In this document: positions 8 to 19,806 of the stretch, in pieces | Layout: every line of letters begins with the position of its first letter | How positions within the stretch are numbered: position 1 is the stretch's first letter | Assembly (NCBI GenBank): GCA_964602335.1 | Contig: CAZRQA010000003.1 | Span: 1 to 24,598, forward strand | Length of the DNA stretch: 24,598 nucleotides | Source of the DNA: an uncultured Bdellovibrionales bacterium | GTDB taxonomy: Bacteria > Patescibacteriota > Minisyncoccia > Moranbacterales > DUUL01 | Reading direction: 5' to 3' | Program-made: the position numbers and the translations under genes | The notes under the pieces: generated by a model | What the model saw: the letters and a program-made list of their open reading frames with translations, nothing else | What the model was told of the DNA's origin: nothing | The model's database searches: none

Positions 8-1201
8 TTGGATGCTGCAAGAAAAAATTATCCCGGACTAAATAAAATAAATTGTGTTATTTCCGGAAAGGAAAATGGAAACCAAAAAACTATTGATTCC
101 GTAGTAGATTTAAAAAACATTCCGGAAAATAAAGCTGCCAAGAAAAATAATTATAATTTTTTAAAAACCGTCAGCCAAAGCAATCTTAATCCGCGCTATA
201 ATTTCAATAATTTTGTGGTTGGGTCTAACAACGAATTAGCTTTCGCGGCTTGCAAGTCGGTAGCAGAAAATCCCGGTGAAAATTACAATCCTTTATTTAT
301 TTATGGAGGGGTGGGCCTGGGAAAAACCCACTTATTACATTCGGTGGGAAATCAAATCAGCAGCGTCAACAAGAATACTGTAATTAAATATGTGGGCATG
401 GAACGTTTTGCTAATGAACTTTTAAGCGCCCTGCAAAATTCCAAAGCTAGGGAATTTAAAAATGATTACATAAAGCTGGATGTTTTAATAATCGACGATG
501 TTCAATTTTTAGCTAAAAAAGAGAAAACTCAGGAAGAGTTTTTTCATGTATTTGAAACCCTTTATCAGCATGGAAAACAAATCATTATCAGCTCTGACCG
601 GCCTCCTAAATCTATTCCCACCCTAGAAGACCGCCTTAGGTCAAGATTTGAGGGGGGAATGATAGCTGATATTACCAAGCCGGACCTAGAAACCAGAATG
701 GCAATTATCCAAAAAAAATTAAAGGAAAAAAATTTCAATTTAAGGGAAGATATTGTTCAATACTTAGCAGAAAGCATTTATCACAATGTGCGCGAATTAG
801 AGGGCGCGCTTAATAAAATAATTGCTATCTATCAATTAAGCAATAAAACACCCAAATTAGAAGATATAACTGAACAAATTCAAGATCATATTTCCTTAAA
901 TCAACAAAAAAAAATAAATCCGGTTAAGGTAATTAAAAGCGTGGCTGATTTTTTTGATATAAGCCAAAAAGACGTTCTGGAAAAATCTCGCAAAAAAAGG
1001 GTGGTAAAGCCCAGGCAGTTGGCTATTTATTTAATTAGGGAAGACGTAGGGCTTTCTTTTCCTGAAATCGGCCAAGTTATGGGAGGAAGAGACCACTCTA
1101 CTGTTATTTATGCTTACGAAAAAATTAAAAAAGAATTAATAAATAATGATATTTTAGAAAATAACTTAAAATATATCAGGGAAAAATTTATTGACTATTA
1201 A
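8..1201 (+). CDS. dnaA: Chromosomal replication initiator DnaA (5' end probably outside window)
   Basis: NPRYNFNNFVVGSNN, YNPLFIYGGVGLGKTHLL (Walker A), LIIDDVQF (Walker B), RLRSRFEGG, domain IV GGRDHSTV. The frame is open back to the window edge and domain I is missing, so the TTG at 8 is probably not the true start. Confidence 0.98.
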   Translation: MDAARKNYPGLNKINCVISGKENGNQKTIDSVVDLKNIPENKAAKKNNYNFLKTVSQSNLNPRYNFNNFVVGSNNELAFAACKSVAENPGENYNPLFIYGGVGLGKTHLLHSVGNQISSVNKNTVIKYVGMERFANELLSALQNSKAREFKNDYIKLDVLIIDDVQFLAKKEKTQEEFFHVFETLYQHGKQIIISSDRPPKSIPTLEDRLRSRFEGGMIADITKPDLETRMAIIQKKLKEKNFNLREDIVQYLAESIYHNVRELEGALNKIIAIYQLSNKTPKLEDITEQIQDHISLNQQKKINPVKVIKSVADFFDISQKDVLEKSRKKRVVKPRQLAIYLIREDVGLSFPEIGQVMGGRDHSTVIYAYEKIKKELINNDILENNLKYIREKFIDY

Positions 1202-6840: not shown

Positions 6841-9039
6841 TTGGAAAAAATAAAAGAAATAAAAAATAAAATATTTAAGAATTCTATACAAAAGAAAAAA
6901 CTTTTTTTAATTTTTTTGGTTTCTTCTTTATTAATGTTGTTTAATTCTAATTATGCTTATGCATTTGTTGATTGGGCTAATATGGGAATGAAGATAGTTA
7001 ACGCGACCCTTTATATGGTGTATCAACTCAGCGTGTTTATTTTTGTTGCGGGCAAATGGCTTTTAGACACCATGACCGATCCCGGGCTTTATTCCACTGT
7101 CTTTTTATCGCCTCATTCCATTGAGGCCATTAACACCGCTTGGACGCATGTACGAGATTTCTTTAATATGATTTTTATTTTAATAATTTTAATGATAGCG
7201 ATTTGCATTATTTTACGCGTACCAAAATACAGCGATAAGAAGTTTCTTTTTTATATAGTTCTGGCGGCGCTTTTAATAAATTTTTCCAAACCAATCGCTT
7301 TGGCAATTATTGACGCTTCGCAATTAACTATGAATTATTTTATCAATGCAGTTAATGGAGACACCTTCGCTTTTACTGACACCTTTGCTAAAAATATTAA
7401 TTTTGACAGAATTCTTAACGTGTCGGATGCTAAAGTGGGAATGGGCATAGCAGTGGTTATCGTGGCTTGCACCATTTTTTTATTATTACTGGGGTTTATG
7501 TTTTTTCTTTTGGCCATCACTCTTTTAATAAGGATGGTAGCCTTTTACGTTTTAATTATACTCTCCCCTTTTGCTATGTTTGGCTTGGCTCTAAGAGGCA
7601 CTGGTGCCGGCAATATGTCTAGCGATTGGTTTAAGAAGATGATAAGCTGGGCCTTTTTCGGTCCGGTGTTAGTTTTTTTTCTTTGGGTTGCTGTAATTTT
7701 GGTCAAGTCAATAACTGAAGCAACCGACAGCGCAAGTTTTCAGCAATATTTCGGTACCTCCTCGGCACTAAAAGTAGAGGGAGCAGACGGAAAAGCTAAT
7801 AATACCTTAAATCTTCTTTTGGGACTGATAATTCCTTACGCAGCCGGGATATATTTATTATATTACGGCTTTGACCTCTCCAGAAAAATGTCCTTGGGCG
7901 CGGCTAATGGAATTTTAAATTGGGGAGAGGGAAAAATGAAAGCATGGAGCAAAAAAATAACCGGAGGTATTAGAAGGGGGGCCACAGCTCCACCTAAAGC
8001 TCTCTGGAAAAGCCAGCTTCAACCTAGACTGAGGGGCAGAATGGAAGGATTAGGAGAAAGACGGAACTCATTAGGAGTTTTAAAAACCAAGGAAGCTAAA
8101 GAAAAAGATCGCAAGAAAAAGTTTGAGCGCTCAAAAGCTCTTGCCAAAGGAGAGGATGAGGGTTTTTATAAACAAAAAATCGAAGCTAAAGAAATAAACG
8201 AAAGAACAGGAGAACTAAAGAAGGAAAATATGACCAAAGAACAAATGGTAGAAAGGCTTGGAAAAACCAAAGATAAAAATGAAAAAGCTGCCCTAGCTAA
8301 ACTTATTGTCAAAGAAGATAAAATCGATCACGACAATTTTAGTGAAGTAATAGAAGCCGCTTCTTATAATCCTCTAATCAAGGAACAAGTGGAAGATTCA
8401 ACAAAAAAAGAACACGTTAACCTGTTAATGGAAAACGAAATAAAAGAGGAAGCAAAAAAGGCAGGACATACTAAGGTTATAAAGAAGGATGACGGAACTG
8501 AAAAAATAGAAGGAGACATAGAAGCCTTTAAAAAAGAAGACAATAAAAAATACAAGGAAAAAACAAAGCCGGTTTATAATAAATATTTAAAAGGTAAAGA
8601 TATGAATTATTATTTAAGACAAAAGGATGATTTTTTAGTTAACGAGGATATCCAAGATCATATAGCCGATAAATATGCCGGCGCCTTATTTAGTGAAAGG
8701 CAAATTCAAGACATGGAGAGACTTGTTGCCGAAAAACACAATAGTCCGCAACATTTTAAATTTGTAAATAATTTTCGTGAAAAGGTTAATGCTAAAAAAG
8801 CGTCAGGTAGTAACAAAAAAACATCAATCTCGCAACAAGCACAAGATCAAAAATCACAGCAAGCACATGATCAAGGAGAGGCTATGGAACATTTTATAAA
8901 TAGCCAAGAAAATCAAGAAGGTAGGCGAAATCAAGAAAATCAAGAAGGCGAACAAAGTCAAAACAATCAAAGCTCTTTTAATAGACAGCGCCCATATTAT
9001 AACGTAGATAATACCAAGGAAGAGAAAGGCGAAGAATAA
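6841..9039 (+). CDS. VirB6/TrbL-like polytopic membrane protein with long charged C-terminal tail
   Basis: TTG start; N-terminal ~350 aa with many TM segments including AWTHVRDFFN..ALLINFS..IIDASQ and LLIRMVAFYVLIILSPFA..WFKKMISWAFFGP (VirB6-type pattern); C-terminal ~380 aa Lys/Glu/Gln-rich; upstream of prgI/virB4. Confidence 0.75.
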   Translation: MEKIKEIKNKIFKNSIQKKKLFLIFLVSSLLMLFNSNYAYAFVDWANMGMKIVNATLYMVYQLSVFIFVAGKWLLDTMTDPGLYSTVFLSPHSIEAINTAWTHVRDFFNMIFILIILMIAICIILRVPKYSDKKFLFYIVLAALLINFSKPIALAIIDASQLTMNYFINAVNGDTFAFTDTFAKNINFDRILNVSDAKVGMGIAVVIVACTIFLLLLGFMFFLLAITLLIRMVAFYVLIILSPFAMFGLALRGTGAGNMSSDWFKKMISWAFFGPVLVFFLWVAVILVKSITEATDSASFQQYFGTSSALKVEGADGKANNTLNLLLGLIIPYAAGIYLLYYGFDLSRKMSLGAANGILNWGEGKMKAWSKKITGGIRRGATAPPKALWKSQLQPRLRGRMEGLGERRNSLGVLKTKEAKEKDRKKKFERSKALAKGEDEGFYKQKIEAKEINERTGELKKENMTKEQMVERLGKTKDKNEKAALAKLIVKEDKIDHDNFSEVIEAASYNPLIKEQVEDSTKKEHVNLLMENEIKEEAKKAGHTKVIKKDDGTEKIEGDIEAFKKEDNKKYKEKTKPVYNKYLKGKDMNYYLRQKDDFLVNEDIQDHIADKYAGALFSERQIQDMERLVAEKHNSPQHFKFVNNFREKVNAKKASGSNKKTSISQQAQDQKSQQAHDQGEAMEHFINSQENQEGRRNQENQEGEQSQNNQSSFNRQRPYYNVDNTKEEKGEE
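8830..8949 (+). repeat. Short in-frame tandem repeats in the VirB6-like tail
   Basis: Two imperfect 24-bp units at 8830-8877 (SQQAQDQK/SQQAHDQG) and the exact 17-mer CAAGAAAATCAAGAAGG at 8905-8921 and 8932-8948 (QENQEG twice, period 27). Confidence 0.85.
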
Positions 9040-9111
9040 AACCTCAACAAAAGAAATATAAGAAGGGGATAATACTAAAATAATAAATTTAAAAAAGTCT
9101 AATTTATCAAA

Positions 9112-10179
9112 ATGACACAGAAAAAGGAAGTAAAATTCAATAATCAAGCCAGCCCGGTTTTTGCCAGTGTGTTATGGAACCCGAAAGAAAGCCAGGAAAA
9201 ACAAATGAATGCTTGGTTTGAAACTTATTCAAGGTTGCCTTTAGTTGTCAGGAGGGGCTTAATCAATTATGATATAGAAAAAACAATAGAAAGTTTTTGC
9301 GCTAATTATAAATTTTCTCTGGAAAAAACTGGTGAGGTTTCCCGGATGATTCGGGAATACTTTACGGAAAACAAAAACAGGGAAGAGTTTGTACGGGACG
9401 CAGTGCGACGCACGAAAGAAAAATTATTAATCCCCCGAGAAAATATTAAGGAATTTATAAAAGAATTATTAGAAATAATCAACAATATTAAAATATTGGG
9501 GCAAGAATTCATAGATGAAGAATATGAAAAAATTTCTTTATTAGAGGCCATAAAAAAATACGAATCAGTGGCTCAACAACTGGTTTCCAGTGATCCGATA
9601 AAACTGGAAGATGAAAAAAAGGGAAAAGCTCCTACTATTAGCCATTGGCTAGAGGATTATTTGGAAAAAATGGGCAGTGATTATCATAATACAGTGGAAA
9701 TAGGCAAGTATCTTTTTGAATCAGAAAATGCCAAAAAATTAAATAAAAAAGAGAGGGACAATTTATCGTCTATAATCGAAGCTTTTAATGAAAAAAAGAA
9801 TGTTTTCATATTAAAAAACAAAAAAGAGAGGCCGCAGATTAATTTTGAATTAACTAATGAACTCAATGAAAGTTTTAGTAAAAATCAATATAAAAAAACA
9901 AAAGCTTTAAAAGAAGAAAGACCCATTAAGTTAAACAAGCAAACAAGCGATCAGCTAAAAATTAAAAAAGATTTTTCCTTGCCGCCGCAATTTAATAATG
10001 ATAAGATTTTTATTGAAAATAAAATGAAAGTGGATTCGGGAAGCAAAACTAATAATAAATCCAAAGAAGAAAGCAATCCTCAAGTTAATTTAAAAGATAA
10101 AAAATCCAGCCAGCCCGAAAAAAATGCCAGCTCAAACAGAAACGTTCTAGACTTAAGTGAATTTATAAATCATAATTAA
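9112..10179 (+). CDS. Soluble hypothetical protein of the T4SS-like cluster
   Basis: 355-aa ORF with no TM or signal peptide; two helical-looking domains and a low-complexity tail ending NVLDLS; 4 bp from the prgI-like gene. Confidence 0.7.
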   Translation: MTQKKEVKFNNQASPVFASVLWNPKESQEKQMNAWFETYSRLPLVVRRGLINYDIEKTIESFCANYKFSLEKTGEVSRMIREYFTENKNREEFVRDAVRRTKEKLLIPRENIKEFIKELLEIINNIKILGQEFIDEEYEKISLLEAIKKYESVAQQLVSSDPIKLEDEKKGKAPTISHWLEDYLEKMGSDYHNTVEIGKYLFESENAKKLNKKERDNLSSIIEAFNEKKNVFILKNKKERPQINFELTNELNESFSKNQYKKTKALKEERPIKLNKQTSDQLKIKKDFSLPPQFNNDKIFIENKMKVDSGSKTNNKSKEESNPQVNLKDKKSSQPEKNASSNRNVLDLSEFINHN

Positions 10180-10183
10180 AAAA

Positions 10184-10579
10184 ATGAAATTTAGAGTTCC
10201 CCAATACATAGAAATAGAAGACAAAATCGCCTTCTTACTAACTGCCAAACAATTAGGCTGGTTTGCTCTAGGGGGAGTAATTTTGTTTATTATTTGGAAT
10301 TTTGTGACCCAGGGATTTTTTATTTTTTGGGCAATTATTATAGGTTTGGCAAGCTGCGCTTTTGCTTTTTATAAGCCTTGCGGCATAACTCTGGCTTCCT
10401 TTATTAAGAACTCTTTTTTATATATGATTGGGCCTAAAAAATATGTATGGAAAGTGAACCCCTCCATAATGGATTCGGTCAAGAAAAAGCAAAAACCAGG
10501 CAAAAAAGAAGAGAAAGAAAAAGATATAAAAAAGCGTCCAAAAAATTTAAATGAAATTGTAGAGATTCTTGATTCATAA
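10184..10579 (+). CDS. prgI: PrgI-family (VirB3-like) membrane protein
   Basis: FRVPQYIEIEDKIAFLLTAKQ N-terminal motif, two TM segments, then YMIGPKKYVWK; upstream of virB4. Confidence 0.85.
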   Translation: MKFRVPQYIEIEDKIAFLLTAKQLGWFALGGVILFIIWNFVTQGFFIFWAIIIGLASCAFAFYKPCGITLASFIKNSFLYMIGPKKYVWKVNPSIMDSVKKKQKPGKKEEKEKDIKKRPKNLNEIVEILDS

Positions 10580-10603
10580 AAATTAAAATAATCATAAATA
10601 AGT

Positions 10604-11275
10604 ATGAAAAAAAAAGAAATTAAAAACAGATTAGCCTCTCTGCAAGATCAGCTGGATATTGTGGATATTAAAAAGGGAGCGGTAGCATTGCGAGACGGCT
10701 CCCTAAGAGGTGTTTTAGCTGTTTCTTCTATAAACTTTGAGTTGAAAGCCCAGGAGGAGCAAGAGGCTATTATTTATAATTATCAGAGGTTTCTCAACAC
10801 TCTTGATTTTTCTATTCAAATTTTAATTTCTTCCAAGAAATTTGATGTAGATCCCTATCTGGATATGCTGGAAAAAAGAAAAAGAAAAACACTGAATAAC
10901 ATGCTTAAAAAGCAAATAACCGACTACATTGATTTTATCGGCGAATTAACGGAGATAAGCAATATTATGTCTACTTATTTTTATATAATTGTTCCTTTTT
11001 ACCCCATTGAGCAAAAAGAACGGAGCATTTTTGAAAAAATTTTTTCGCTGGTCAATCCGAGAAAAGCTATTTATCAAGAAAGGGAGAATTTTGAAACTTG
11101 CCGCAGCCAGCTTTTTTTAAGAATGGAACAAGTGCGTGAGTCTTTAATAAACTTAGGGTTGGATATTACTCCCCTGGGAACAGAAGATTTAATTGAGCTT
11201 TTTTATAACTTTTTTAATCCTTCTGAATTTGAATATAATCAAATGGAGGGTATAGATAAATTGCAATTAGAATAA
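10604..11275 (+). CDS. TrsD/TraC-like T4SS accessory protein (resembles a stand-alone VirB4 N-terminal module)
   Basis: LDIVDIKKGAVALRDGSLRGVLAVSSINFELKAQEEQEAII..FLNTLDFSIQILI; lies between the PrgI-like and VirB4 genes, as trsD does in monoderm conjugation loci. Confidence 0.65.
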   Translation: MKKKEIKNRLASLQDQLDIVDIKKGAVALRDGSLRGVLAVSSINFELKAQEEQEAIIYNYQRFLNTLDFSIQILISSKKFDVDPYLDMLEKRKRKTLNNMLKKQITDYIDFIGELTEISNIMSTYFYIIVPFYPIEQKERSIFEKIFSLVNPRKAIYQERENFETCRSQLFLRMEQVRESLINLGLDITPLGTEDLIELFYNFFNPSEFEYNQMEGIDKLQLE

Positions 11276-11291
11276 TAATATTAACAATTTT

Positions 11292-13184
11292 ATGAATTTT
11301 TTGAACAAATTAGCTGCTTTATTCAATAAAAAAGAAAAAGCAAAAAAAGAAGCAAAAAAAGACATTATTGAAAAACAAGACAATAAAGAATCAGCCAAAG
11401 ACATATTAAAAGAAGAAAGGAATTACAAGGAGGGATTAATTAAGGTTTTAGATTTTATTTCTCCTTCAGCCTTGGGCATAAATGCTTCTCACATTCAAAT
11501 AGGAGAAGCTTATTGCCGAATTTATTTTATTTCCACTTATCCGCAAACCCTGTCTATTGGCTGGCTTTCGGGCGTGGTTAATATTGACATGCCGTTAGAT
11601 GTTTCTATTTTTCTTCACCCGGTAGATACCGGAAAAATCATCAAGACCTTAAGGAAAAAAGCCGCTCAGATTCAATCGGAGCTAAACATTGAATCAAGAA
11701 AGGGACTGGTGCGAGATCCTACCCTAGAGCTTGCTTTTGAAAATGTAGAAAATTTAAGGGATACGCTCCAGGAAGGAAGTGAGAGAGTTTTTAAAGTGGG
11801 AATTTATATTTCCATTTTTGCTAAAAGCCTTAAAAAACTTAATAAGCAAGGGGAATTATTAGAAACCATTTTAAATGCGAGGTTAATTTATACCAAGAAA
11901 GCCATTTTTCGCATGAAGGAAGGATTTTATTCCACTCTCCCTTTTTGTGAAGACAAGTTAATGTCCGGGGTAGACTTAAACACAGCCCCCTTGTCCACAT
12001 CTTTTCCTTTTATTTCCTCAGACGTCACTTCCAATAAGGGAATTTTATATGGCGTTAATAGACACAATAATTCCCTAATTCTTTTTGATAGATTTTCTAT
12101 GGAAAATGCCAATATGGTAATTTTTGCCAAGTCGGGAGCTGGTAAAAGTTATACTGTAAAATTAGAAGCCTTGCGCTCTATGATGCTGGGAACCAATATT
12201 GTTATTATTGATCCGGAGGATGAATACCGACACTTAGCGGAAGCAGCCGGGGGAAGCTTTATTAAAATATCCTTAACCTCTTCTAACCACATTAATCCTT
12301 TTGATTTATCCAAAGAGGAGGGAGAAGAAATGGAAAGCATTCTAAGGAGTAATATTGCTGAGTTGTTGGGACTTTTAAAATTAATGCTGGGAAATATCAC
12401 GCCAGAAGAAGAAACAATCCTAGAAAGAGCTATTAAAGAAACTTATGCAGTAAGAGATATAACCACAGACACTCCCATAGCTGAACTATCTAATAGAACA
12501 ATCCCTGTTTTGGATGATTTATATGAGGTTTTAAGAAATATGAAGGGAGCGGAGGATATAGCCATGAGGATAGAAAAATACACCAAAGGCATTTTTTCCG
12601 GATTTTTAAACAATCAATCTAATACCAGCTTAAACAACCAGATGATAGTTTTTAATATTAGAGACCTAGAAGAAGAACTGAGACCGATAGCGATGTATAT
12701 GATTTTACACTATATGTGGAAAGATATAAAAATAAACCGAAAGAAGAGAATAATTATCGTAGATGAAGCCTGGGTAATGATGCAAAATGAAGAAGCGGCT
12801 AAGTTTATGTTTTCTTTAGCTAAAAGAATTAGGAAATATTATGGAGGGTTGACCACAATTACTCAGGATATTTCCGATTTTATGAATTCAAGATATGGCA
12901 AGCCGATTGTTTCCAACTCTTCTTTACAGCTTTTAATGCGCCAATCCCAGTCTTGTATTGATGTTATTACTGATACTTTTTATTTAACAGACCGAGAAAA
13001 ATATTTATTATTGGAGAGCCGGGTGGGGGAGGGAATCTTTTTTGCCGGCAATAAACGCGCAGCCATTCAAGTAGTTTCTTCTTACAATGAAGATAGATTA
13101 GTTACTACCAACCCAGAACAATTATTAGAAATAGAAAGAGAAGAAAAAGAAAAAATGAAGGAAACAAAAGAAGAAGATAAATAA
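11292..13184 (+). CDS. virB4: VirB4/TraC/TraE-family T4SS ATPase
   Basis: Walker A FAKSGAGKSY, IIDPEDEY, INPFDL, Walker B IIIVDEAW, RIRKYYGGLTTITQDISDF, VGEGIFF. Confidence 0.93.
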   Translation: MNFLNKLAALFNKKEKAKKEAKKDIIEKQDNKESAKDILKEERNYKEGLIKVLDFISPSALGINASHIQIGEAYCRIYFISTYPQTLSIGWLSGVVNIDMPLDVSIFLHPVDTGKIIKTLRKKAAQIQSELNIESRKGLVRDPTLELAFENVENLRDTLQEGSERVFKVGIYISIFAKSLKKLNKQGELLETILNARLIYTKKAIFRMKEGFYSTLPFCEDKLMSGVDLNTAPLSTSFPFISSDVTSNKGILYGVNRHNNSLILFDRFSMENANMVIFAKSGAGKSYTVKLEALRSMMLGTNIVIIDPEDEYRHLAEAAGGSFIKISLTSSNHINPFDLSKEEGEEMESILRSNIAELLGLLKLMLGNITPEEETILERAIKETYAVRDITTDTPIAELSNRTIPVLDDLYEVLRNMKGAEDIAMRIEKYTKGIFSGFLNNQSNTSLNNQMIVFNIRDLEEELRPIAMYMILHYMWKDIKINRKKRIIIVDEAWVMMQNEEAAKFMFSLAKRIRKYYGGLTTITQDISDFMNSRYGKPIVSNSSLQLLMRQSQSCIDVITDTFYLTDREKYLLLESRVGEGIFFAGNKRAAIQVVSSYNEDRLVTTNPEQLLEIEREEKEKMKETKEEDK

Positions 13185-13193
13185 AAAAAATTC

Positions 13194-13703
13194 ATGGAAA
13201 AAGAGAGGGAAATAAAGAGAAATTTAGACAGAAACCGATTATCCCTAAGGCAACAAAAAAAAATGAGAGAAGAAAGTGTTTGGCCAAAAAACAGGATTGC
13301 TAGTTATGATGAAAAAAATGATGCTGAATTAAAAAACAGCGGTGTTGCTAGAAAAATAACTCCCGTCAGGGCGATTACTCTGGCCCTTAAAATGAGAAAA
13401 CAAGCCGTTCAAGGAGATACCAGTGTTTACATCTATGTATTTTTTTTGGCCGTTATGGCAGACTCAATTGATTTTATTCCCATTGCTGGGCCAATGGTTT
13501 CGGGTTTCATAAAGCCGTTTTTATTTGTTTTTCTATGGGGAAGAGGAGCTTGGAAAGTAAAAACTGTTCGTTTAATTTTAATAACAGCAGATTATTTGCC
13601 GGTTTCCAACAAGCTTCCCTGGTCTACTATTTGTGTAGCTTATTCTTATATAAATGAAAAAAAACAAGCGGAAATAAAAAGCAAAAGAATAGAATATTTT
13701 TAA
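13194..13703 (+). CDS. Hypothetical membrane protein
   Basis: Basic N-terminus, then hydrophobic segments with DSIDFIPIAGP and LPVSNKLPWST; 9 bp after virB4. Confidence 0.7.
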   Translation: MEKEREIKRNLDRNRLSLRQQKKMREESVWPKNRIASYDEKNDAELKNSGVARKITPVRAITLALKMRKQAVQGDTSVYIYVFFLAVMADSIDFIPIAGPMVSGFIKPFLFVFLWGRGAWKVKTVRLILITADYLPVSNKLPWSTICVAYSYINEKKQAEIKSKRIEYF

Positions 13704-13725
13704 ATCAATTAAAATAATAAGAGGC

Positions 13726-14406
13726 TTGAAAAAAAATAATAAAGAAAATTTAATATTTTTTATTACTATTGCGATAATTTTTTTAGGGCAATGGTATCTT
13801 GCTAAGAATAATAGCAGTACTTTTGATTTATTGAATTGGCTGCTGGCTTCAATTTTTATGTTGTTTCTTTTTCCAATTTTTATTATTAAACGAATTTACA
13901 AAAAAAAATTAAAGAATTATTACTTAAAATTAAATTTTTTAAAAGATAACCAAGTTAAAAGCATCGTTTTACTGGAAGTTTTGTTTGTAGTTGGATTATT
14001 ATATTTTTTTGTGGTAGAATTAGGCTGGGTAGAACACTTTAGGGCTTATATGTGGTTTTTTGGCAGCTGGAGTGTTATTTTATTTGTAGAACTTGTTATT
14101 TTACCCTTACTTATTTTTTCTGAAGAGTTTTTTTTTAGAGGATTTATTCTTAAAACACTATTAGACAGATATAAGATATTATGGGCCTTGCTCATCCAGG
14201 TTTTCATTGTGATAATCTATCAGGCAATTTTAAGTTCTTTTTTAGCCTGGCAGTTGTTGATTATTTTATTCATAGTTAATATTTTTTTAAGCTGGATAGT
14301 GGCGCAAACTAGGACAATTTGGATTTCTTTTTTGGTGATGCTTTTATTTAGATATCTCATTGACGGATACATTCTATACCAAATAAAATTTTTATTGGGA
14401 AATTAA
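13726..14406 (+). CDS. CPBP/Abi (CAAX protease-like) intramembrane protein with degenerate active site
   Basis: TTG start; multi-TM; EEFFFRGF matches the EExxxR motif, but no histidine occurs downstream of it. Confidence 0.75.
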   Translation: MKKNNKENLIFFITIAIIFLGQWYLAKNNSSTFDLLNWLLASIFMLFLFPIFIIKRIYKKKLKNYYLKLNFLKDNQVKSIVLLEVLFVVGLLYFFVVELGWVEHFRAYMWFFGSWSVILFVELVILPLLIFSEEFFFRGFILKTLLDRYKILWALLIQVFIVIIYQAILSSFLAWQLLIILFIVNIFLSWIVAQTRTIWISFLVMLLFRYLIDGYILYQIKFLLGN

Positions 14407-14421
14407 ATTTGAAAACAAAAA

Positions 14422-17391
14422 ATGCCTAACGGATTAAAAAACAAAACAATAAAAAACTTTTATTTCTTTTTGATTTTAGTGTTGTTTTTTTCAGAAAATG
14501 TTTTTGCTCAATTTGATCCAACTCCTGACGTTCCAACTCCCGACAGCGGAGGAGGAATTTTTGGAGGCGGGCCCAGTATAAGCGTGGCAGGGGTTTTAGA
14601 TCAGATAGAAAAGAGATACGGATATGACAAAAATGTTTGGAGAAGAGGGAAGGTAAAAGCTTTTTATCCCAAAGTCGAACTTTTTTTTGATAAAACCAAT
14701 CCCAAAGAGGGAGAAATGGTTACTGCCAGCGCTATCCCGGCTTATTTTAGAAATACCTCCGAAAACTTATATTTTACTTGGTATATCGTTCACAAGGATG
14801 ATGCGGAAGACGGGGTTATTGATATAGAAGAAGCCAAAAGGGAAGCCATGGGAAAAGTGGCGAGGGGCAATTTTAATCCGGTTCTATTTGGAACAAGATA
14901 CGATAATGGTGGAGACGACCCCGATCATGACGGTTTTGATGCTCCAATAGGAGGAAAAGACGGAGTTGGAGCCAAGGATTCCCATGGGTGCGGCTCTAAA
15001 ACAAAAAGAAGCAACCCTTGTTTTGAGGATTATTGTTATATAGATGAACCCCGCCAATTAGTTGGAGCTTCATGTATTAGCCGATGTTATGAACATAATT
15101 TTGGCTTGCAATTTAATGCTGATTCCGAGGTAGATAAAATAGAAGGGGGAGAAGAGATAGCCTCTGGGAAAGATAGGATCATAGAATGCAAACACGATTT
15201 TGCTAAAGCAAAAAAAGGAGAAAAAGCGACTTTTAGTTATGAGGATGGCACAACAAAAACATATGAGTGCGATAAAAATTATAGAGTAGGAGATTCAAAT
15301 AAATTTACTACTAATGAGGAATTTTGCTGGAGATTAGATCCTGAAAACCCCGATACTGATGGAGATGGAATTGAAGATGAGGCTGATTTAGCTGGTTTAG
15401 CTCAAAATAGCTTTAGATGGGAGTATCAGGAGGGGGACTTGGTCGGGGTAATAGTGGAAGGAACTGCCCACGTTCCAACAAATGAAGGAAAAACACAAAA
15501 GCAAGCAAATGAATTAACAAGGGCGAATGAAGATGGAAATGTTTCGTTGGGTTCGGCTAATGCTAGCGCTTCAGCTACTGGCGGATCCAATAATTCTGGC
15601 GGATCTGCTAATGCTAGCACTAGTGTAGATCTAGGTTTTGATGTAAGTGATACAGCTGAAGCGCTTGGCGGGTATGATGCTCCAGCTGATGAAGAAGATT
15701 TAGCTGCTGATACCAGTGCGTTAACGCCTTATTATAAAATAATGTGGGCTGGAATTGAAATTTGCAATGAACATAATGACGGCCTTTTTGTTGGGGATAA
15801 TTGCGATGACGAGCATGATTATGGCTATCACTTTTACGCCCTAAAGCCGGTAAATGAGGAAGCTGATTCACTTATTGAAAATGAAATAAATTATAAGCCT
15901 ATTAATCCCCAATTCGATAGCGTGGACGAAGAATATTCAGACACAATTGAGTTTAATTCAACCTTAATAAATGAAACTCTGAATACCAATTTTGTTTACT
16001 ATGAATGGGACATCTTTAGGTGTAAAGATGGTGATATTGAAAATTGTCCAGGTTTAGGAAAGGATCTAGACGAATACGTTAATTTAACCAAAAGATGTGA
16101 ACACGGAGACTTATTAGAAGAATGCACCAAGCAGTGCGTTAACCAGGATGGAAAAATTATTGGTTATAATAATTGTAATGAAAGCGAATTAGTAAAGGTT
16201 TTAGAATCAGACAGTCATGTTCAGGGAATGGGAGTTAATGAAATTAAATTCAAGCCCAAAAAACCCTTAATAGAAGAAGACAGGCAGTATTTCAATGTTT
16301 TTTTAAAGACAAAGCACTTTAAAGAAGAACAAAAATATTTTGTTTCCAGAAAATCAGTACCAGTGACTAAAAATAACCTAAAAATAAAATTATACAAAAC
16401 AAAAAAACTGGAAAACGGCAAGTATGGCTTTGATTCAGAAGAGGATGAAATATGCAAGGAAGGCCTGTATAAAACTATGTGCCCCGTTTTCCCTTACCAG
16501 GTTTTAGCTGCTAAAGCCGAATTTCAAGGTGAGCCGGAAGATGATGTAACTTACAATTGGAAATTGGGAGAAAATTTAATAAGCCCACCATTGGATTGCG
16601 AGGATTCATTTCAAGAAAAATATTGTGATTTAGATGAGGTTATTTATTTTCCAATTTTAGAAGAAAATAAGTCCATCAACACTATTGGAGTAGTAGCCAA
16701 GAGAGGGGATATAATAGAGGGAGACAATGGAGAAGATTTAATTTCCCAGAGAATATTTTCCATTAATCCTCCCGCGGCGGCAATTAAAACCCAAAACCCA
16801 GAGACCGCTTGGCAGTCTAAACTGTACGATGAGACGGAAGGAGTTAATTTTTTTGAAACTGAGCCTGGCAATAAAGTGGAATTTAAAGCTTCCATGATAC
16901 CTGATTATTTAGAAATAGGCGAGGATGTTTATTTGGACTGGTATTTAAATGGGACAAAAGTTACGGAAGATTTCATTAAAGAAATTCCAGAAATGGAGAT
17001 AGAATTCAAAGAAGATCAAAAGGTGATAAATTATAAAGTGTTAGGAAAAATTGGTAACAATAGCAGTTTAAGCATAAAAACAAGAAAATTATTTTCTTTT
17101 GATGAGCTTAGGCTGTTACAAAAGAATTGGGATGTTTTAGATGTGGACCCGCTTGAAAAAGAAAACTCGATTACTATTAAAAAAATTTATAATCCGGCCA
17201 ATGAAGAAGAAAATAATTTAGCCAATAACACAGAGTCATTAAAATTGTTTTTTGCCTCTACGGTTAAAAATGCTCCGGGATATTTGATTTTTACTTTAAG
17301 ATTGTCAGTAATGTTGATGATTATTTGGGGAATTATTCTTGGGGCAGATTACATAGTTTCACGGCCAATCAAAAGCGACTCTAAGAAATAA
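14422..17391 (+). CDS. Large secreted, C-terminally anchored Cys-rich surface protein (adhesin-like)
   Basis: Signal peptide ending VFA-Q; 20 Cys; DPENPDTDGDG Ca-binding motif; repeated Y-x-W strands (YFTWY, YYEWD, TYNWK, YLDWY) suggestive of Ig/PKD-like domains; C-terminal TM followed by a short basic tail. Confidence 0.75.
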   Translation: MPNGLKNKTIKNFYFFLILVLFFSENVFAQFDPTPDVPTPDSGGGIFGGGPSISVAGVLDQIEKRYGYDKNVWRRGKVKAFYPKVELFFDKTNPKEGEMVTASAIPAYFRNTSENLYFTWYIVHKDDAEDGVIDIEEAKREAMGKVARGNFNPVLFGTRYDNGGDDPDHDGFDAPIGGKDGVGAKDSHGCGSKTKRSNPCFEDYCYIDEPRQLVGASCISRCYEHNFGLQFNADSEVDKIEGGEEIASGKDRIIECKHDFAKAKKGEKATFSYEDGTTKTYECDKNYRVGDSNKFTTNEEFCWRLDPENPDTDGDGIEDEADLAGLAQNSFRWEYQEGDLVGVIVEGTAHVPTNEGKTQKQANELTRANEDGNVSLGSANASASATGGSNNSGGSANASTSVDLGFDVSDTAEALGGYDAPADEEDLAADTSALTPYYKIMWAGIEICNEHNDGLFVGDNCDDEHDYGYHFYALKPVNEEADSLIENEINYKPINPQFDSVDEEYSDTIEFNSTLINETLNTNFVYYEWDIFRCKDGDIENCPGLGKDLDEYVNLTKRCEHGDLLEECTKQCVNQDGKIIGYNNCNESELVKVLESDSHVQGMGVNEIKFKPKKPLIEEDRQYFNVFLKTKHFKEEQKYFVSRKSVPVTKNNLKIKLYKTKKLENGKYGFDSEEDEICKEGLYKTMCPVFPYQVLAAKAEFQGEPEDDVTYNWKLGENLISPPLDCEDSFQEKYCDLDEVIYFPILEENKSINTIGVVAKRGDIIEGDNGEDLISQRIFSINPPAAAIKTQNPETAWQSKLYDETEGVNFFETEPGNKVEFKASMIPDYLEIGEDVYLDWYLNGTKVTEDFIKEIPEMEIEFKEDQKVINYKVLGKIGNNSSLSIKTRKLFSFDELRLLQKNWDVLDVDPLEKENSITIKKIYNPANEEENNLANNTESLKLFFASTVKNAPGYLIFTLRLSVMLMIIWGIILGADYIVSRPIKSDSKK

Positions 17392-17399
17392 AAAACTGC

Positions 17400-18587
17400 A
17401 TGAAAATTTTATTTAATAAAAAAAACATCAAACTATTTTCTTTATTTCTGTCTTTTGCTTTCTTTATTATTGTTTTTCTTGTCTGCAATTTAAGCCTTGT
17501 TAAACAGAACGCAGGTTTTTCATTGACTTTTTCAAAAAATCAAGTACTGGCAGCCGATCAATCGAATAGTGGATCTTATGAAATGTTTGAAAAGATTCCC
17601 GGGCAAGATCCTGCCAAGAATTTGTTAGAATATCTGGATACTCTTTATAAATTTGGCATTGCCATTTCCGCTATTTTGGCTTTTGTAATGATTTCTATTG
17701 CTGCTTTTACTATCATGGTCAGCGGTGCTGGTAATGCTTCCAAGATTGTTGATGCCAAATCGATGATTGGAGACGCCGTGCTCGGCTTGGTTATAGCCTT
17801 AGCCGCTTATTTATTTTTGTATGTTATTAATCCAGATTTTGTTTCCGCTACCAAAGAGAAACAGAAAACAGTCGGTGAGATGACTCATGATGAAAGCGAC
17901 CAACCATCTAGTGTTTCGAATAAGGAAGGTTATTCCAAAGCCTGCCCCAAAGGCGAAGAAAGTGATAGTCCAATTGATTATGGAAAATCCAAAGAAGAAG
18001 AACAAAATTTTGGTGGTGATTGTAGCAATAAAAAAATGAACGAATCTTTTGAAAAATTTGGTGAATCATTAAACCAATCAGGCGTCCCCAGAATAGATGG
18101 TGCTTGCCTTTTAAAAACTATTGCCCACCTGGAAACCACTTGCGGCGCAAATGGCAAGGAAAAACGTCCCAAAGAACTAAAAGACGGGACAACGGTGTAT
18201 GTTTGCAGTTTAATGCAATTAAGAGAATCTACTGCCATAGAATTGGGCCATACTGACGGATGCGACGAAGAATTAGTAAAAGATGATGAATTGGCGATAA
18301 GATTAGCTACTGATTATATAAAAAAACATTTAAGCAGTGTTAGCAGCCTAGAGAGTTATAATAAAATTGCAGGCTTATTAGCGGGATACAATAGCGGCTA
18401 TGCCACTTCTGTGCCAGAAGGAAAGCCTAAGAGCGCCCTTTGTGATAGCAGTGATTGTCCGGGAGAGAAAGCCTTTGAGTGTTGCATAAATCCGGTCAGG
18501 CTGGATGAATCAATTAGTCATGCTTGGAACGGAGTAGGCCTTTATAAGCAATGCACTGGAGCTCACTGGACAGAAGAAGAGCAATAA
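17400..18587 (+). CDS. VirB2-like pilin fused to a C-terminal lytic transglycosylase (SLT/lysozyme-like) domain
   Basis: Residues ~60-148 form a pilin hairpin (IPG..LLEYLDTLYKFGIAISAILAFVMI..SGAGNASKIVDAKSMIGDAVLGLVIAL..YVINPDFV). C-terminal TIAHLET (Glu245), SLMQL, AIRLATDYI and AGYNSG follow the order of SLT motifs I-III. Confidence 0.75.
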   Translation: MKILFNKKNIKLFSLFLSFAFFIIVFLVCNLSLVKQNAGFSLTFSKNQVLAADQSNSGSYEMFEKIPGQDPAKNLLEYLDTLYKFGIAISAILAFVMISIAAFTIMVSGAGNASKIVDAKSMIGDAVLGLVIALAAYLFLYVINPDFVSATKEKQKTVGEMTHDESDQPSSVSNKEGYSKACPKGEESDSPIDYGKSKEEEQNFGGDCSNKKMNESFEKFGESLNQSGVPRIDGACLLKTIAHLETTCGANGKEKRPKELKDGTTVYVCSLMQLRESTAIELGHTDGCDEELVKDDELAIRLATDYIKKHLSSVSSLESYNKIAGLLAGYNSGYATSVPEGKPKSALCDSSDCPGEKAFECCINPVRLDESISHAWNGVGLYKQCTGAHWTEEEQ

Positions 18588-18654: not shown

Positions 18655-19806
18655 ATGATTAAAAAGATATTTTTAATATCTTCTATTTCATTTTTAATCT
18701 TGGGCTTGGTTTTTTTGTTTTTGAAGTTTTTTTTCAAGGGCGATTTTAGTTTTTTTAATAAAAATCAGCCAGAAAAGGTTAGTGTTTCAGAAAAAGAAAA
18801 AGAGAGTCCATCCCTAAGAGAAGAGGCCGTTGCCGAAAAAAATAAAGAAAAAATAAAGCAGGTAATCACTGGAAATTTAGTTTCTGCTACCATTAAATTT
18901 CCAGAAAACGATATTTATTATTTTCATAATAATAATTTTTTAAAATTTAATAGCAGTACAACATCCCCAATTTCTCTTGCCAGCCATCCTTTCAAAGAAA
19001 TTAATTACATAAACTGGTCTTTTCAAAAAGATAAAGCTTTAATAAGGGATGGCTACAAGTTTTATGTTGTTTTTTTAGAGGAAAATAAAATTTCACCTAT
19101 TGAAAAAACAATGGATATAGCTGTTTTTAATCATTATGGAGATAAACTAGTATTTAAGGACTACAACAAAGAAACCCAAAAAAGAAATATTAAGTTGTTG
19201 GATTTAACTACTAACAAAGAAGAGTTATTGACAAACATAAAAGAAAGGAAGATTTCTTTAAAAAGAAACCCCAATCAAAATGAATTTTTATCTTTTGCCT
19301 ATCCTAGCGCTTTTCAGAAAACGAATAGTTTTTTGTTTGATTTAGTGACTAAAGAAAAAAAACAAGTGCTTGAAAATAAACAAGGAGTTAATTTTTTATG
19401 GTCAACTAAAGGCGATAAACTGCTTTTTTCTTACACATTAGAGAATGATAAAAGTAAAATGGAATTAGCAATTATGAATAAAAACGGAGGAGAGGTGGGG
19501 AATTTAAATTTCCCTACGATGGTTGATAAATGCGTGTGGTCTAAGGATAATATTAATGTCTATTGTGCGGCACTAACAGACACAGAAGCGACTGCGGTTT
19601 TGCCAAATGATTGGCTGAAAAGGAGTTTTAAAAACAAAGACGTTTTTTGGAAGATTAACACCATTAGCGGTAAAAAAGAAAGAATTTTAGAGCTGAAAGA
19701 CATAAAAAAGAATTATGATGGATATAATTTTTTTGTCGACCAAGAAGAGGAAAATTTATTTTTTATTAACAAGCGAGACAAAAGCCTATATAAAATTATT
19801 TTGTAG
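18655..19806 (+). CDS. Membrane-anchored beta-propeller protein (TolB/WD40-like)
   Basis: Single N-terminal TM, then recurring blade-like motifs (WSFQKDKALI, FNHYGDKLVF, WSTKGDKLLF, WSKDNINVYC). Confidence 0.65.
   Translation: MIKKIFLISSISFLILGLVFLFLKFFFKGDFSFFNKNQPEKVSVSEKEKESPSLREEAVAEKNKEKIKQVITGNLVSATIKFPENDIYYFHNNNFLKFNSSTTSPISLASHPFKEINYINWSFQKDKALIRDGYKFYVVFLEENKISPIEKTMDIAVFNHYGDKLVFKDYNKETQKRNIKLLDLTTNKEELLTNIKERKISLKRNPNQNEFLSFAYPSAFQKTNSFLFDLVTKEKKQVLENKQGVNFLWSTKGDKLLFSYTLENDKSKMELAIMNKNGGEVGNLNFPTMVDKCVWSKDNINVYCAALTDTEATAVLPNDWLKRSFKNKDVFWKINTISGKKERILELKDIKKNYDGYNFFVDQEEENLFFINKRDKSLYKIIL

What the first reader, a model, noticed from the sequence alone, without database searches (positions are those of the whole stretch)
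17400..18587. Pilin-lytic transglycosylase fusion: a VirB2 subunit carrying its own cell-wall drill
The last operon gene joins a signal peptide, a VirB2/TrbC-like two-helix pilin (nt ~17577-17843, ending INPDFV), an acidic linker and a domain with SLT motifs in the right order. These are IAHLET with putative catalytic Glu245 (nt 18132-18134), SLMQL (cf. GLMQ, nt 18207), AIRLATDYI and AGYNSG (cf. AYNAG, nt 18381). In canonical T4SS, VirB1 (SLT) and VirB2 are separate genes and VirB1 opens the donor's own wall. Here the enzyme would be displayed on a minor pilin and is stabilised by 11 Cys, as expected for a fully extracellular domain. The inference is a pilus-delivered muramidase aimed at the host's peptidoglycan in an epibiotic lifestyle. 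ES to ET and GLMQ to SLMQ are deviations. Pilins with C-terminal extensions occur in CPR, so novelty needs checking.
Basis: partly seen in the sequence, partly recalled or inferred. Interest (0 to 1): 0.85.

Follow-up and report, generated by a model that had tools for sequence, protein, structure and literature searches.

The report
T4SS pilin fused to wall-cutting enzyme
In an ultrasmall (CPR/Patescibacteria) bacterium, the only pilin gene of the type IV secretion cluster has a cell-wall-cutting enzyme fused to its outward-facing end; the fusion is real, conserved and unstudied, but nothing yet shows whether it cuts the bacterium's own wall or its host's.

Summary
ORF 17400-18587 (+, 395 aa) encodes a leader, a two-helix hairpin of the CPR 'T4SS_pilin' family (PF18895), a short disordered linker and a disulfide-rich GH23/SLT lytic-transglycosylase domain (aa 175-395). 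Every motif coordinate is exact.

- **Enzyme domain:** Glu245 is invariant in 42/42 fusion homologues and aligns with the Slt70 'ES' motif. The 29 best Foldseek PDB matches are all lysozyme-like.
- **Selection:** both halves are under purifying selection.
- **Family:** the gene belongs to a recurrent family, already auto-named in databases. The order is always pilin then SLT. Related pilins carry NlpC/P60, VanY or unknown Cys-rich tails instead.
- **Position:** the gene sits at a fixed place in the origin-proximal T4SS cluster of Moranbacteria-type genomes. Sister genera have a plain ~140-aa pilin at that place, so this is the cluster's own pilin, not a minor one.
- **Not the last gene:** a conserved 383-aa gene follows, with no terminator between.
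- **Target:** the host-wall reading is untested. The organism makes its own peptidoglycan, and the enzyme first appears at its own membrane.
- **Pilin identity:** similarity to proven VirB2 pilins could not be shown by sequence or fold.
- **Earlier work:** no paper describing the fusion was found. This scan had noted it only on this window.

The parts
17400..18587 (+). Whole gene: pilin-SLT fusion protein, 395 aa plus stop
   Evidence: ORF list. Relatives of 86%, 58% and 44-47% identity are full length in independent assemblies. dN/dS against the congener is 0.15 overall.
17400..17555 (+). Leader, aa 1-52: Lys-rich start, hydrophobic helix aa 7-31, then a disordered spacer ending in VLA. Signal-peptidase cleavage after Ala52 is inferred.
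   Evidence: Hydropathy. AF2 helix 7-31, with aa 33-56 disordered. In plain pilins of the family the leader ends just before the conserved E-x-IPGQ motif. The cleavage site is inferred, not tested.
17556..17849 (+). PF18895 'T4SS_pilin' hairpin, aa 53-150. It comprises the Y-E-x-x-E-K-IPGQ motif (aa 60-69, nt 17577-17606), helix 1 (aa 75-108), a short Lys-containing loop with invariant Gly111-Asn112, helix 2 (aa 113-143) and the NPD motif (aa 144-146).
   Evidence: All 38 aligned relatives match PF18895, best 7.9e-11; 141 of 150 in the wider set match, best 1.8e-25. The subfamily profile scores this stretch 133.7 bits. AF2 pLDDT is 80-97. dN/dS is 0.08.
17850..17921 (+). Flexible linker, aa 151-174, mixed Lys/Glu/Asp/Ser
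   Evidence: AF2 pLDDT is below 50 for aa 151-173. Its length varies among homologues.
17922..18584 (+). Disulfide-rich GH23/SLT lytic-transglycosylase domain, aa 175-395. It comprises an N-terminal helical lobe (175-232), the SLT core (233-340) and a family-specific Cys-rich C-terminal extension (341-395; motif S-x-DCPG..AF-x-CCINP).
   Evidence: AF2 pLDDT is about 90+. The 29 best Foldseek PDB hits are all lysozyme-like: LtgA, MltE, DslA, g-type lysozyme, EtgA. The domain profile hits Slt70 at 8e-11, EtgA at 1e-10, and also MltC and T7 gp16. 29/42 relatives hit the NCBIfam flagellar-assembly LT model and 26/42 the Slt70 model.
18132..18134 (+). Glu245, the predicted catalytic acid (motif E-T; E-S in most relatives)
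   Evidence: Invariant in 42/42; the next residue is S in 35 and T in 7. The family's 'aEs' aligns on 'QES' of E. coli Slt70. That this is Slt70's catalytic Glu478 is from the literature, recalled from memory.
18207..18218 (+). S-L-M-Q, aa 270-273, a variant of SLT motif II (GLMQ), preceded by Cys269
   Evidence: G in 40/42 and S in 2/42 (this genus only). Met272 is invariant; Gln273 is present in 41/42.
18381..18401 (+). A-G-Y-N-S-G-Y, aa 328-334, SLT motif III (AYNAG-type)
   Evidence: Gly329 and Tyr330 are invariant; Asn331, Gly333 and Tyr334 are each present in 41/42.
6841..17391 (+). Upstream genes of the same conserved T4SS cluster: 732-aa polytopic protein (VirB6-like, weak TcpD hit), 355-aa protein, PrgI/VirB3 (10184-10579), TrsD-like (10604-11275), VirB4 (11292-13184), 169-aa protein, Rce1/CAAX-like (13726-14406), 989-aa Cys-rich surface protein (14422-17391)
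   Evidence: Pfam and NCBIfam hits. The same gene order recurs in 9 Moranbacteria-type loci and 4 further genomes of the order.
18655..19806 (+). 383-aa membrane-anchored protein, the constant downstream neighbour of the cluster pilin whether that pilin is fused or plain
   Evidence: Homologue found directly after the pilin gene in L013-L020, L023 and L033-L036. No terminator-like site in the gap.

Best explanation
The gene encodes the T4SS cluster's own pilin-type subunit (PF18895 hairpin) with an active-looking GH23 lytic transglycosylase permanently tethered to its C-terminus.

Shown:
- The two-domain architecture.
- The lysozyme-like fold and the invariant Glu245.
- Purifying selection on both halves.
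- A fixed position in the conserved origin-proximal VirB4/PrgI/TrsD cluster.
- Orthology of position with plain pilins in sister genera.

Inferred mechanism:
1. Sec inserts the protein with the hairpin loop in the cytoplasm and both termini outside.
2. The enzyme folds outside, stabilised by about five disulfides, on a flexible tether of about 25 residues.
3. Because it is carried by the subunit that the T4SS recruits, it is concentrated where the machine is built. There it cuts glycan strands of the cell's own peptidoglycan, making space for the channel or pilus. This is the VirB1 job done in cis by the VirB2-type subunit.
4. Pilin termini face outward in all solved conjugative pili. Any filament made from this subunit would therefore also carry the enzyme outward, so a second action on the partner cell's wall at the contact site is possible but not shown.
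For: - Architecture and fold.
- Export and disulfides: a leader and two hydrophobic helices. Cysteines co-occur in tidy pairs: 182-362 (41/41), 269-288 (38/38), 236-385 (11/11), 208-248 (35/37), 353-361 (both invariant).
- Selection: dN/dS is 0.08 for the hairpin, 0.16 for the SLT core and 0.03 for the C-terminal extension.
- Cluster membership and synteny.
- Sole pilin of this subfamily in the genome; plain pilins sit at the same place in G196 and G166.
- No other recognisable hydrolase in the cluster.
- The organism has its own wall: 5 Mur-ligase matches and 3 PBP transpeptidase matches.
- Other tails found on related pilins are SLT, NlpC/P60 (P0101) and VanY. SLT plus a CHAP or NlpC/P60-type peptidase is the domain set of Gram-positive VirB1-type hydrolases such as TraG_pIP501 and PrgK (PMC12102498).
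- Hydrolases next to virB4 are essential in the cultivated Saccharibacterium S. epibionticum (PMC12102498).
- Pilin termini lie outside the pilus (preprint 10.64898/2025.12.18.695078).
Against: - The SLT tail is patchy. Only 22 of 101 sampled genomes of the order match the domain profile. Sister genera with the same cluster have a plain pilin and no hydrolase between virB4 and the 383-aa gene. A space-making enzyme is therefore not indispensable to this machine.
- A conserved carrier with swappable C-terminal domains is also the pattern of effectors aimed at other cells.
- No test here distinguishes own wall from host wall.
- Whether PF18895 proteins polymerise at all is unproven. The hairpin showed no specific match to solved pilins, and the four-copy complex prediction was uninformative.
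- The window's enzyme is a divergent member (ET, SLMQ; Pfam 19.4 bits).
Confidence: 0.45

Rival explanations
1. The fusion is assembled into a T4SS pilus. The enzyme is displayed on the filament's outer surface and digests the host cell's peptidoglycan at the epibiotic contact. It would be an 'evolved pilin', analogous to T6SS spike proteins with C-terminal lysozyme domains.
For: - Pilin N- and C-termini are on the outside of all solved conjugative pili.
- A conserved hairpin with variable Cys-rich or enzymatic tails (SLT, NlpC/P60, VanY, unknown modules) resembles polymorphic effector architecture.
- The tail is accessory and patchy among genomes that share the same cluster, as expected for a host-adaptive module.
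- The CPR T4SS is essential for epibiotic growth in one cultivated species, and its role there is unknown.
- PDB sequence matches include T7 gp16, an SLT domain on an ejected structural protein that cuts the target's wall.
Against: - No pilus has been seen for any PF18895 protein.
- The enzyme is exposed to the producer's own wall before any assembly.
- No fusion-specific immunity-like gene exists: the downstream 383-aa gene also follows plain pilins.
- If this is the only cluster pilin, every subunit would carry a 24-kDa domain. That is unprecedented for VirB2-type filaments.
- The host and its envelope type are unknown.
Confidence: 0.3
2. The hairpin is only a membrane anchor, a common CPR surface-display module misnamed 'pilin'. 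The protein would then be an ordinary membrane-bound autolysin for growth or division that happens to sit beside the T4SS genes.
For: - The hairpin gives only generic helical-hairpin matches by fold and none by profile to solved pilins.
- Most PF18895 proteins in this genome and among relatives carry large Cys-rich ectodomains, on either end.
- Three fusion-bearing genomes (G218, G187, G157) have no other SLT-family gene.
Against: - The gene keeps a fixed place inside the VirB4 cluster across an order, and lies near virB4 in another class.
- This SLT subfamily was retrieved almost only as a pilin fusion: 59 of 60.
- This genome already has a separate SLT-LysM housekeeping enzyme.
- Sister genera lack the tail, which a core autolysin would not allow.
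Confidence: 0.12
3. The fusion is a precursor. The tail is cut off after the NPD motif or in the linker. This yields a normal short pilin for assembly and a free secreted transglycosylase, comparable to the release of VirB1* or the C-terminal trimming of TrbC.
For: - A disordered linker follows the invariant NPD motif.
- Plain pilins also carry short variable tails after NPD.
- An Rce1/CAAX-type membrane-protease homologue lies two genes upstream, and is also present in clusters with plain pilins.
Against: - The CAAX homologue keeps EExxxR but has no histidines at the expected later motifs, so it may be inactive.
- No cleavage evidence of any kind exists.
- The strict retention of the fusion (59/60) argues that physical linkage matters.
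Confidence: 0.1

Closest known systems
VirB1-type T4SS peptidoglycan hydrolases (A. tumefaciens VirB1; Gram-positive TraG_pIP501, PrgK, CwlT, TcpG)
   Same: A GH23/SLT-type enzyme encoded inside a T4SS gene cluster and exported to the wall. In Gram-positive systems the enzyme is membrane-anchored. Related CPR pilins carry an NlpC/P60 peptidase, which is similar to the second domain of the Gram-positive enzymes.
   Different: Here the anchor is the pilin-type hairpin itself, not a separate protein or a simple N-terminal helix. The tail is dispensable in sister genera with the same cluster. There is a family-specific Cys-rich C-terminal extension and about five predicted disulfides.
VirB2/TraA/TrbC conjugative pilins; PrgF of pCF10; PF18895 pilin arrays of Saccharibacteria
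   Same: A leader, two hydrophobic helices joined by a short charged loop, and a gene next to VirB3/VirB4/VirB6-type genes. It belongs by homology to PF18895, the family counted as 'VirB2-like' in Patescibacteria.
   Different: It carries a 245-residue C-terminal extension. There was no detectable profile or fold match to solved pilins. Only 3 of 150 relatives touch Pfam TrbC/VirB2 at E<=1e-3. Polymerisation is unproven.
FlgJ (flagellar rod cap fused to a muramidase) and the EtgA-EscI pair of the T3SS
   Same: A wall-cutting enzyme is physically coupled to a subunit of the growing axial structure, so the hole is made where the machine grows. EtgA is among the best sequence and fold matches. 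29/42 relatives hit the NCBIfam flagellar-assembly LT model.
   Different: This is a different secretion machine and a different carrier. In FlgJ and EtgA the carrier is a cap or rod protein inside the envelope, not an external filament subunit. The FlgJ comparison is from general knowledge and was not tested here.
Structural subunits with C-terminal wall-degrading effector domains (V. cholerae VgrG-3; phage T7 gp16)
   Same: A conserved structural N-terminal part is joined to a lysozyme-like C-terminal domain. T7 gp16 is a direct sequence match of the SLT profile, 2.6e-9.
   Different: Those enzymes act on the target cell's wall, and the T6SS case comes with an adjacent immunity gene. No fusion-specific immunity candidate was found here. 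The VgrG-3 comparison is from memory.

Membership tests
SLT / GH23 family-1 lytic transglycosylase (Pfam PF01464) | Scores above the Pfam gathering threshold | tested here: inconclusive
   The window protein scores 19.4 bits against a cut-off of 21.3. The six-frame genome search gave 21.6 bits. Homologues pass clearly: 51 of 150, best 3.9e-28.
SLT / GH23 family-1 lytic transglycosylase (Pfam PF01464) | Lysozyme-like alpha-helical fold | tested here: met
   The AF2 model has pLDDT of about 90 for aa 175-390. Foldseek ranks 1-29 are all LTs or lysozymes with probability 0.89-1.00.
SLT / GH23 family-1 lytic transglycosylase (Pfam PF01464) | Catalytic Glu in motif I (E-S) | tested here: met
   Glu245 is invariant in 42/42. 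The next residue is Thr here; it is Ser in 35 and Thr in 7. The motif aligns on 'QES' of Slt70.
SLT / GH23 family-1 lytic transglycosylase (Pfam PF01464) | Motifs II (GLMQ) and III (AYNAG) | tested here: met
   SLMQ, with G in 40/42, S in 2/42 and Met272 invariant. AGYNSGY, with Gly329 and Tyr330 invariant.
SLT / GH23 family-1 lytic transglycosylase (Pfam PF01464) | Produces 1,6-anhydroMurNAc ends (a transglycosylase, not a hydrolase) | not testable with these tools
   Needs a muropeptide analysis.
T4SS_pilin (Pfam PF18895), the CPR 'VirB2-like' family | Homology to family members | tested here: met
   The protein's own Pfam E-value is 0.014-0.42, below threshold. A profile of 38 relatives, all PF18895-positive, scores this stretch 133.7 bits, E=2e-39.
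VirB2/TrbC/TraA conjugative pilins | Leader peptide, two hydrophobic helices and a short charged connecting loop | tested here: met
VirB2/TrbC/TraA conjugative pilins | Encoded with VirB3, VirB4 and VirB6-type genes | tested here: met
   PrgI, TrsD and VirB4 lie upstream in one co-oriented cluster, and this order is conserved in relatives.
VirB2/TrbC/TraA conjugative pilins | Detectable similarity to experimentally proven pilins | tested here: inconclusive
   The hairpin profile found no pilin in the PDB. Foldseek gave only generic hairpins with E>1. 3 of 150 relatives hit Pfam TrbC at E<=1e-3. Short hairpins carry little signal.
VirB2/TrbC/TraA conjugative pilins | Polymerises into an extracellular filament | not testable with these tools
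   The four-copy complex prediction scored 0.00 with pLDDT of about 38, which the tool itself rates as no evidence either way.
VirB1-type T4SS-dedicated wall hydrolase | Wall-degrading domain encoded within the T4SS cluster | tested here: met
VirB1-type T4SS-dedicated wall hydrolase | A separate protein, constantly associated with the machine | tested here: not met
   It is fused to the pilin. Same-family genomes G196 and G166 have the same cluster with a plain pilin and no hydrolase gene between virB4 and the 383-aa gene. The domain profile matches 22 of 101 genomes of the order.
Specialised structural-subunit effectors (VgrG-3 type) | Adjacent cognate immunity gene specific to the enzymatic tail | tested here: not met
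   The only constant neighbour, the 383-aa gene, also follows plain pilins. No extra gene accompanies the fusion in the Moranbacteria-type loci.

The most novel reading that the evidence does not exclude
PF18895 'pilins' of CPR bacteria are a modular display platform. The T4SS filament subunit carries swappable, disulfide-rich cargo on its outward-facing ends: SLT, NlpC/P60, VanY and many unknown Cys-rich modules. The essential CPR T4SS would then build an enzyme-decorated filament that opens the host's wall at the contact site. This would make it a pilin-borne counterpart of 'evolved' T6SS spike effectors, and it would suggest what this T4SS is for.
Probability: 0.25. Interest if true: 0.8.

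Novelty: new variant of a known kind. Interest (0 to 1): 0.55.

Why it matters
The T4SS of Patescibacteria is widespread, sits next to the replication origin, and is essential for epibiotic growth in the one species tested. Its function is called 'completely unknown' (PMC11665869). The main survey concluded that most of these systems lack a VirB1 (PMC12102498).

A family in which the cluster's own pilin carries the wall-cutting enzyme bears on both points. It shows where at least part of the 'missing' hydrolase function sits. It links the pilin physically to peptidoglycan cleavage. It also offers a simple soluble domain (aa 175-395, with E245Q as control) that can be assayed without cultivating the organism.

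Plain and fused pilins alternate at one locus, and NlpC/P60 and VanY tails occur on related pilins. This gives a natural comparison for asking whether the tail serves self-assembly or host attack.

The architecture itself is not new to databases. It is auto-named in the ESM Atlas and by NCBI. What is new is its interpretation and context, not its existence.

Tried and rejected
- **Single-sequence PDB search of the whole protein:** only a spurious GalU match, E=0.0045. NCBIfam gave the same weak GalU hit. Both were rejected once profile and fold pointed to GH23.
- **PHROGs:** nothing useful.
- **Hairpin profile against the PDB, and Foldseek of a hairpin-only model:** no pilin match, only generic hairpins. 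This neither supports nor refutes VirB2 likeness.
- **Complex prediction with four hairpin copies:** score 0.00 and low pLDDT, uninformative by the tool's own verdict.
- **Pilin paralogues inside the window:** none found.
- **Complementary distribution (fusion versus stand-alone SLT) across 10 genomes:** mixed. Three fusion genomes have no other SLT, two have one, and plain-pilin genomes usually have one elsewhere. The sample is too small to use.
- **Lipoprotein idea for Cys29:** rejected. The Cys is absent in the 58%-identical relative, and the residues before it do not fit a lipobox.
- **Assembly or frameshift artefact:** rejected, because the same architecture occurs in dozens of independent assemblies.
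- **Supplementary table of PMC12102498:** searched for proteins scored as both VirB1 and VirB2. The stored file is truncated and gave no answer.
- **Model coordinates:** not available to scripts. The cleft position of Glu245 and the disulfide geometry could not be measured.
Full report
**1. Observation**

The window (33% G+C) carries a single long ORF at 17400-18587 on the + strand, 395 aa.
- IAHLET at aa 241, with Glu245 at nt 18132-18134
- SLMQL at nt 18207
- AIRLATDYI at aa 299
- AGYNSG at nt 18381
- INPDFV at nt 17826

There are 12 cysteines, one in the leader and 11 after it. Hydropathy shows three hydrophobic stretches, corresponding to the leader and two helices.

**2. Domain identity**

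Taken alone, the protein is a weak match to curated models. Pfam SLT gives 19.4 bits against a cut-off of 21.3. T4SS_pilin (PF18895) gives E=0.014-0.42. NCBIfam and a single-sequence PDB search gave only a spurious GalU match. The assignments therefore rest on relatives.

Sequence evidence from relatives:
- A word-indexed search found 13 relatives. An exhaustive HMMER search found 8438 cluster representatives at E<=1e-3 and 401 at E<=1e-10.
- Of 150 top representatives, 141 match PF18895 (best 1.8e-25) and 51 match SLT (best 3.9e-28).
- In an alignment of 42 full-length fusion proteins, Glu245, Met272, Thr278, Ala279, Gly329, Tyr330, Ser350, Cys353 and Cys361 are invariant.
- The residue after the Glu is Ser in 35 and Thr in 7. 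The first residue of G-L-M-Q is Gly in 40 and Ser in 2, this genus only.

Structural evidence:
- An AlphaFold2 model built on that alignment has mean pLDDT 81. It shows a leader helix (aa 7-31), a disordered spacer (33-56), a helical hairpin (75-108 and 113-143), a disordered linker (151-173) and a compact domain (175-390) with pLDDT of about 90.
- Foldseek against the PDB returned, in ranks 1-29, only lysozyme-like proteins: LtgA, MltE, Bdellovibrio DslA, g-type and i-type lysozymes, destabilase and EtgA.
- A profile of the enzyme half alone hits E. coli Slt70 (8e-11), EtgA (1e-10), MltC, T7 gp16, MltE and MltF. The family's 'aEs' sits on Slt70's 'QES'.
- NCBIfam places 29/42 relatives with a flagellar-assembly LT model and 26/42 with Slt70.

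The C-terminal half is therefore a GH23/SLT-type enzyme with its catalytic-type Glu intact.

The hairpin half is a member, by homology, of PF18895. However, it could not be tied to experimentally proven pilins. A hairpin profile found no pilin in the PDB. A hairpin-only model (pLDDT 84) matched only generic hairpins.

**3. Is it a functional gene?**

Compared codon by codon with its 86%-identical congener (L013), dN/dS is as follows:

| Region | dN/dS |
|---|---|
| Hairpin | 0.08 |
| SLT core | 0.16 |
| Cys-rich C-terminal extension | 0.03 |
| Whole gene | 0.15 |

Cysteine columns co-occur in neat pairs: 182-362, 269-288, 236-385, 208-248 and 353-361. This leaves Cys348 unpaired. The pattern fits a disulfide-bonded domain outside the cytoplasm. 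These pairs come from co-occurrence only and share phylogenetic history.

**4. Context**

The window runs dnaA, dnaN, a DciA-like gene and a UbiA-family gene, followed by a co-oriented block:
1. a TSP3-repeat protein
2. a 312-aa protein
3. a 732-aa polytopic protein
4. a 355-aa protein
5. PrgI
6. a TrsD-like protein
7. VirB4
8. a 169-aa protein
9. an Rce1/CAAX-like protein
10. a 989-aa Cys-rich protein
11. the fusion
12. a 383-aa protein

This is the origin-proximal, MPF-FATA-like T4SS described for Patescibacteria (PMC12102498).

The same gene order, with the fusion between the 989-aa and 383-aa homologues, recurs in several sets of loci:
- three metagenomic contigs carrying a 44%-identical relative that NCBI names 'transglycosylase SLT domain-containing protein [Candidatus Moranbacteria]'
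- nine species-representative loci, six of them titled Moranbacteria/Moraniibacteriota
- G218

In Falkowbacteria- and Buchananbacteria-type loci, a plain pilin and a pilin-SLT sit in tandem. In two of those loci they lie about 7 kb from virB4.

No terminator-like site lies between the fusion and the 383-aa gene. That gene follows the pilin everywhere examined. The fusion is therefore not the last gene of the conserved module.

**5. The key comparative result**

In five genomes of the same family that lack the SLT profile, the strongest match to the hairpin subfamily profile scores 124-149 bits.
- In G196 and G166 this match lies exactly between the 989-aa and 383-aa homologues and is a plain pilin of 139 and 144 aa.
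- In G156 the gene at that place has a low-complexity N-terminal insert and a different Cys-rich tail.

In the window's genome, only the fusion matches this subfamily profile strongly (133.7 bits). The other PF18895 proteins, on contig C36, are distant. The fusion is therefore the orthologue of the cluster's own pilin, not an extra 'minor' one. The SLT tail is an accessory module.

Distribution:
- The tail's profile matches 22 of 101 sampled genomes of the order, in 7 of 12 families, always a minority.
- In a 150-genome sample of the class, 125 had a hairpin match, but no match extended into the enzyme half.
- Among 157 retrieved proteins, 59 have hairpin then SLT, never the reverse. Only one fragment has this SLT without a hairpin.
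- A further 72 have other extensions of at least 120 aa, nearly all Cys-rich.
- One (P0101) is confirmed as hairpin plus NlpC/P60. Two carry VanY.

**6. Mechanism**

Shown: a Sec-type leader, a two-helix hairpin, a flexible linker and an intact-looking LT domain, encoded as the pilin of a conserved T4SS cluster.

Inferred: with the loop inside and both termini outside, the enzyme is extracytoplasmic whether or not the leader is cleaved.

The organism makes peptidoglycan. It has five Mur-ligase matches, three PBP transpeptidases and a separate SLT-LysM enzyme. The enzyme therefore meets the producer's own wall first.

The most economical reading is a VirB1-type space-making enzyme delivered in cis by the subunit that the machine recruits. 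Two points support this. The tails seen on related pilins overlap the domain set of Gram-positive VirB1-type hydrolases (SLT plus a CHAP or NlpC/P60-type peptidase). Hydrolases beside virB4 are essential in S. epibionticum (PMC12102498).

Against it as the sole role: sister genera run the same cluster without any such tail.

Pilin termini face outward in all solved conjugative pili (preprint 10.64898/2025.12.18.695078). The conserved-carrier, variable-tail pattern resembles effector architecture. But no PF18895 filament has been observed, no fusion-specific immunity-like gene exists, and the host is unknown.

Two further rivals cannot be excluded: an anchor-only role for the hairpin, and a precursor that is cleaved. 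The neighbouring CAAX homologue keeps EExxxR but lacks histidines at the later motifs, which weakens it as the candidate processing enzyme.

**7. Comparison and novelty**

The closest known things are:
- VirB1-type hydrolases: same enzyme class and same genomic association, but separate proteins
- VirB2/PrgF pilins: same topology and context, but no enzyme
- FlgJ and EtgA-EscI: an enzyme coupled to an axial subunit of another machine
- VgrG-3 and T7 gp16: a structural subunit with a wall-degrading tail aimed at a target cell

Searches of the paper library found no description of a VirB2-SLT fusion. The Patescibacteria survey scored VirB1 and VirB2 separately and inferred that pilus biogenesis there does not need VirB1. 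Databases already record the architecture automatically.

I therefore rate this a new variant of a known kind. Interest is moderate, because it offers a cultivable-free biochemical handle on an open question: what the essential CPR T4SS does.

This scan had noted the operon and its neighbours only on this same window.

Noticed in passing
L001:616-2199 (-) and L003:1381-2997 (-); own genome contig C36: An array of PF18895 proteins of 527-538 aa. In these the hairpin is at the C-terminus, preceded by a Cys-rich ectodomain of about 400 aa. One has two hairpins in tandem. Cargo can therefore sit on either end of the hairpin in this organism.
   Followed up: partly
window 18655-19806 (+): A 383-aa protein with an N-terminal membrane helix follows the cluster pilin in every relative examined, whether the pilin is fused or plain. 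It has no family assignment beyond a faint Tricorn_2nd hit in a relative. It is probably part of the T4SS module.
   Followed up: partly
window 13726-14406 (+): The Rce1/CAAX-like protein keeps the EEFFFR motif but has no histidine at the later FxxxH and HxxxN/D positions. It may be an inactive protease homologue. It is conserved in clusters with plain pilins too.
   Followed up: partly
L035:9429-10415 (+); genome G156: The syntenic pilin of a sister genus has a Q/N/G/S-rich low-complexity insert before the hairpin and a tail of about 120 aa, Cys-rich and not SLT. This is a third state of the same locus.
   Followed up: no
L021, L022, L024, L025 (about 9770-12014 in each): In Falkowbacteria- and Buchananbacteria-type genomes, a hairpin-only gene and a hairpin-SLT gene lie in tandem. 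In two of these loci they are about 7 kb from an oppositely oriented PrgI-TrsD-VirB4 block.
   Followed up: no
P0101 (360 aa); P0023 and P0100 (about 900 aa): P0101 is a hairpin followed by an NlpC/P60 peptidase domain. P0023 and P0100 each contain three PF18895 hairpins in one chain.
   Followed up: partly
L013 (contig CAYMRZ010000008.1): The 86%-identical, fully syntenic relative is titled 'uncultured Bdellovibrionales bacterium'. Its gene content (CPR-type T4SS cluster, same neighbours) indicates that this automatic label is wrong.
   Followed up: no
window 6841-9039 (+): The first 60 residues of the 732-aa polytopic protein weakly match the NCBIfam model for the Clostridium conjugation membrane protein TcpD (E=8.4e-5). 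No VirB6 model matched it directly.
   Followed up: no
L007:892-2358 (-); own genome contig C9: A separate 488-aa SLT enzyme with a LysM-like C-terminal part is the likely housekeeping lytic transglycosylase of this genome. Three other fusion-bearing genomes (G218, G187, G157) show no second SLT gene.
   Followed up: partly
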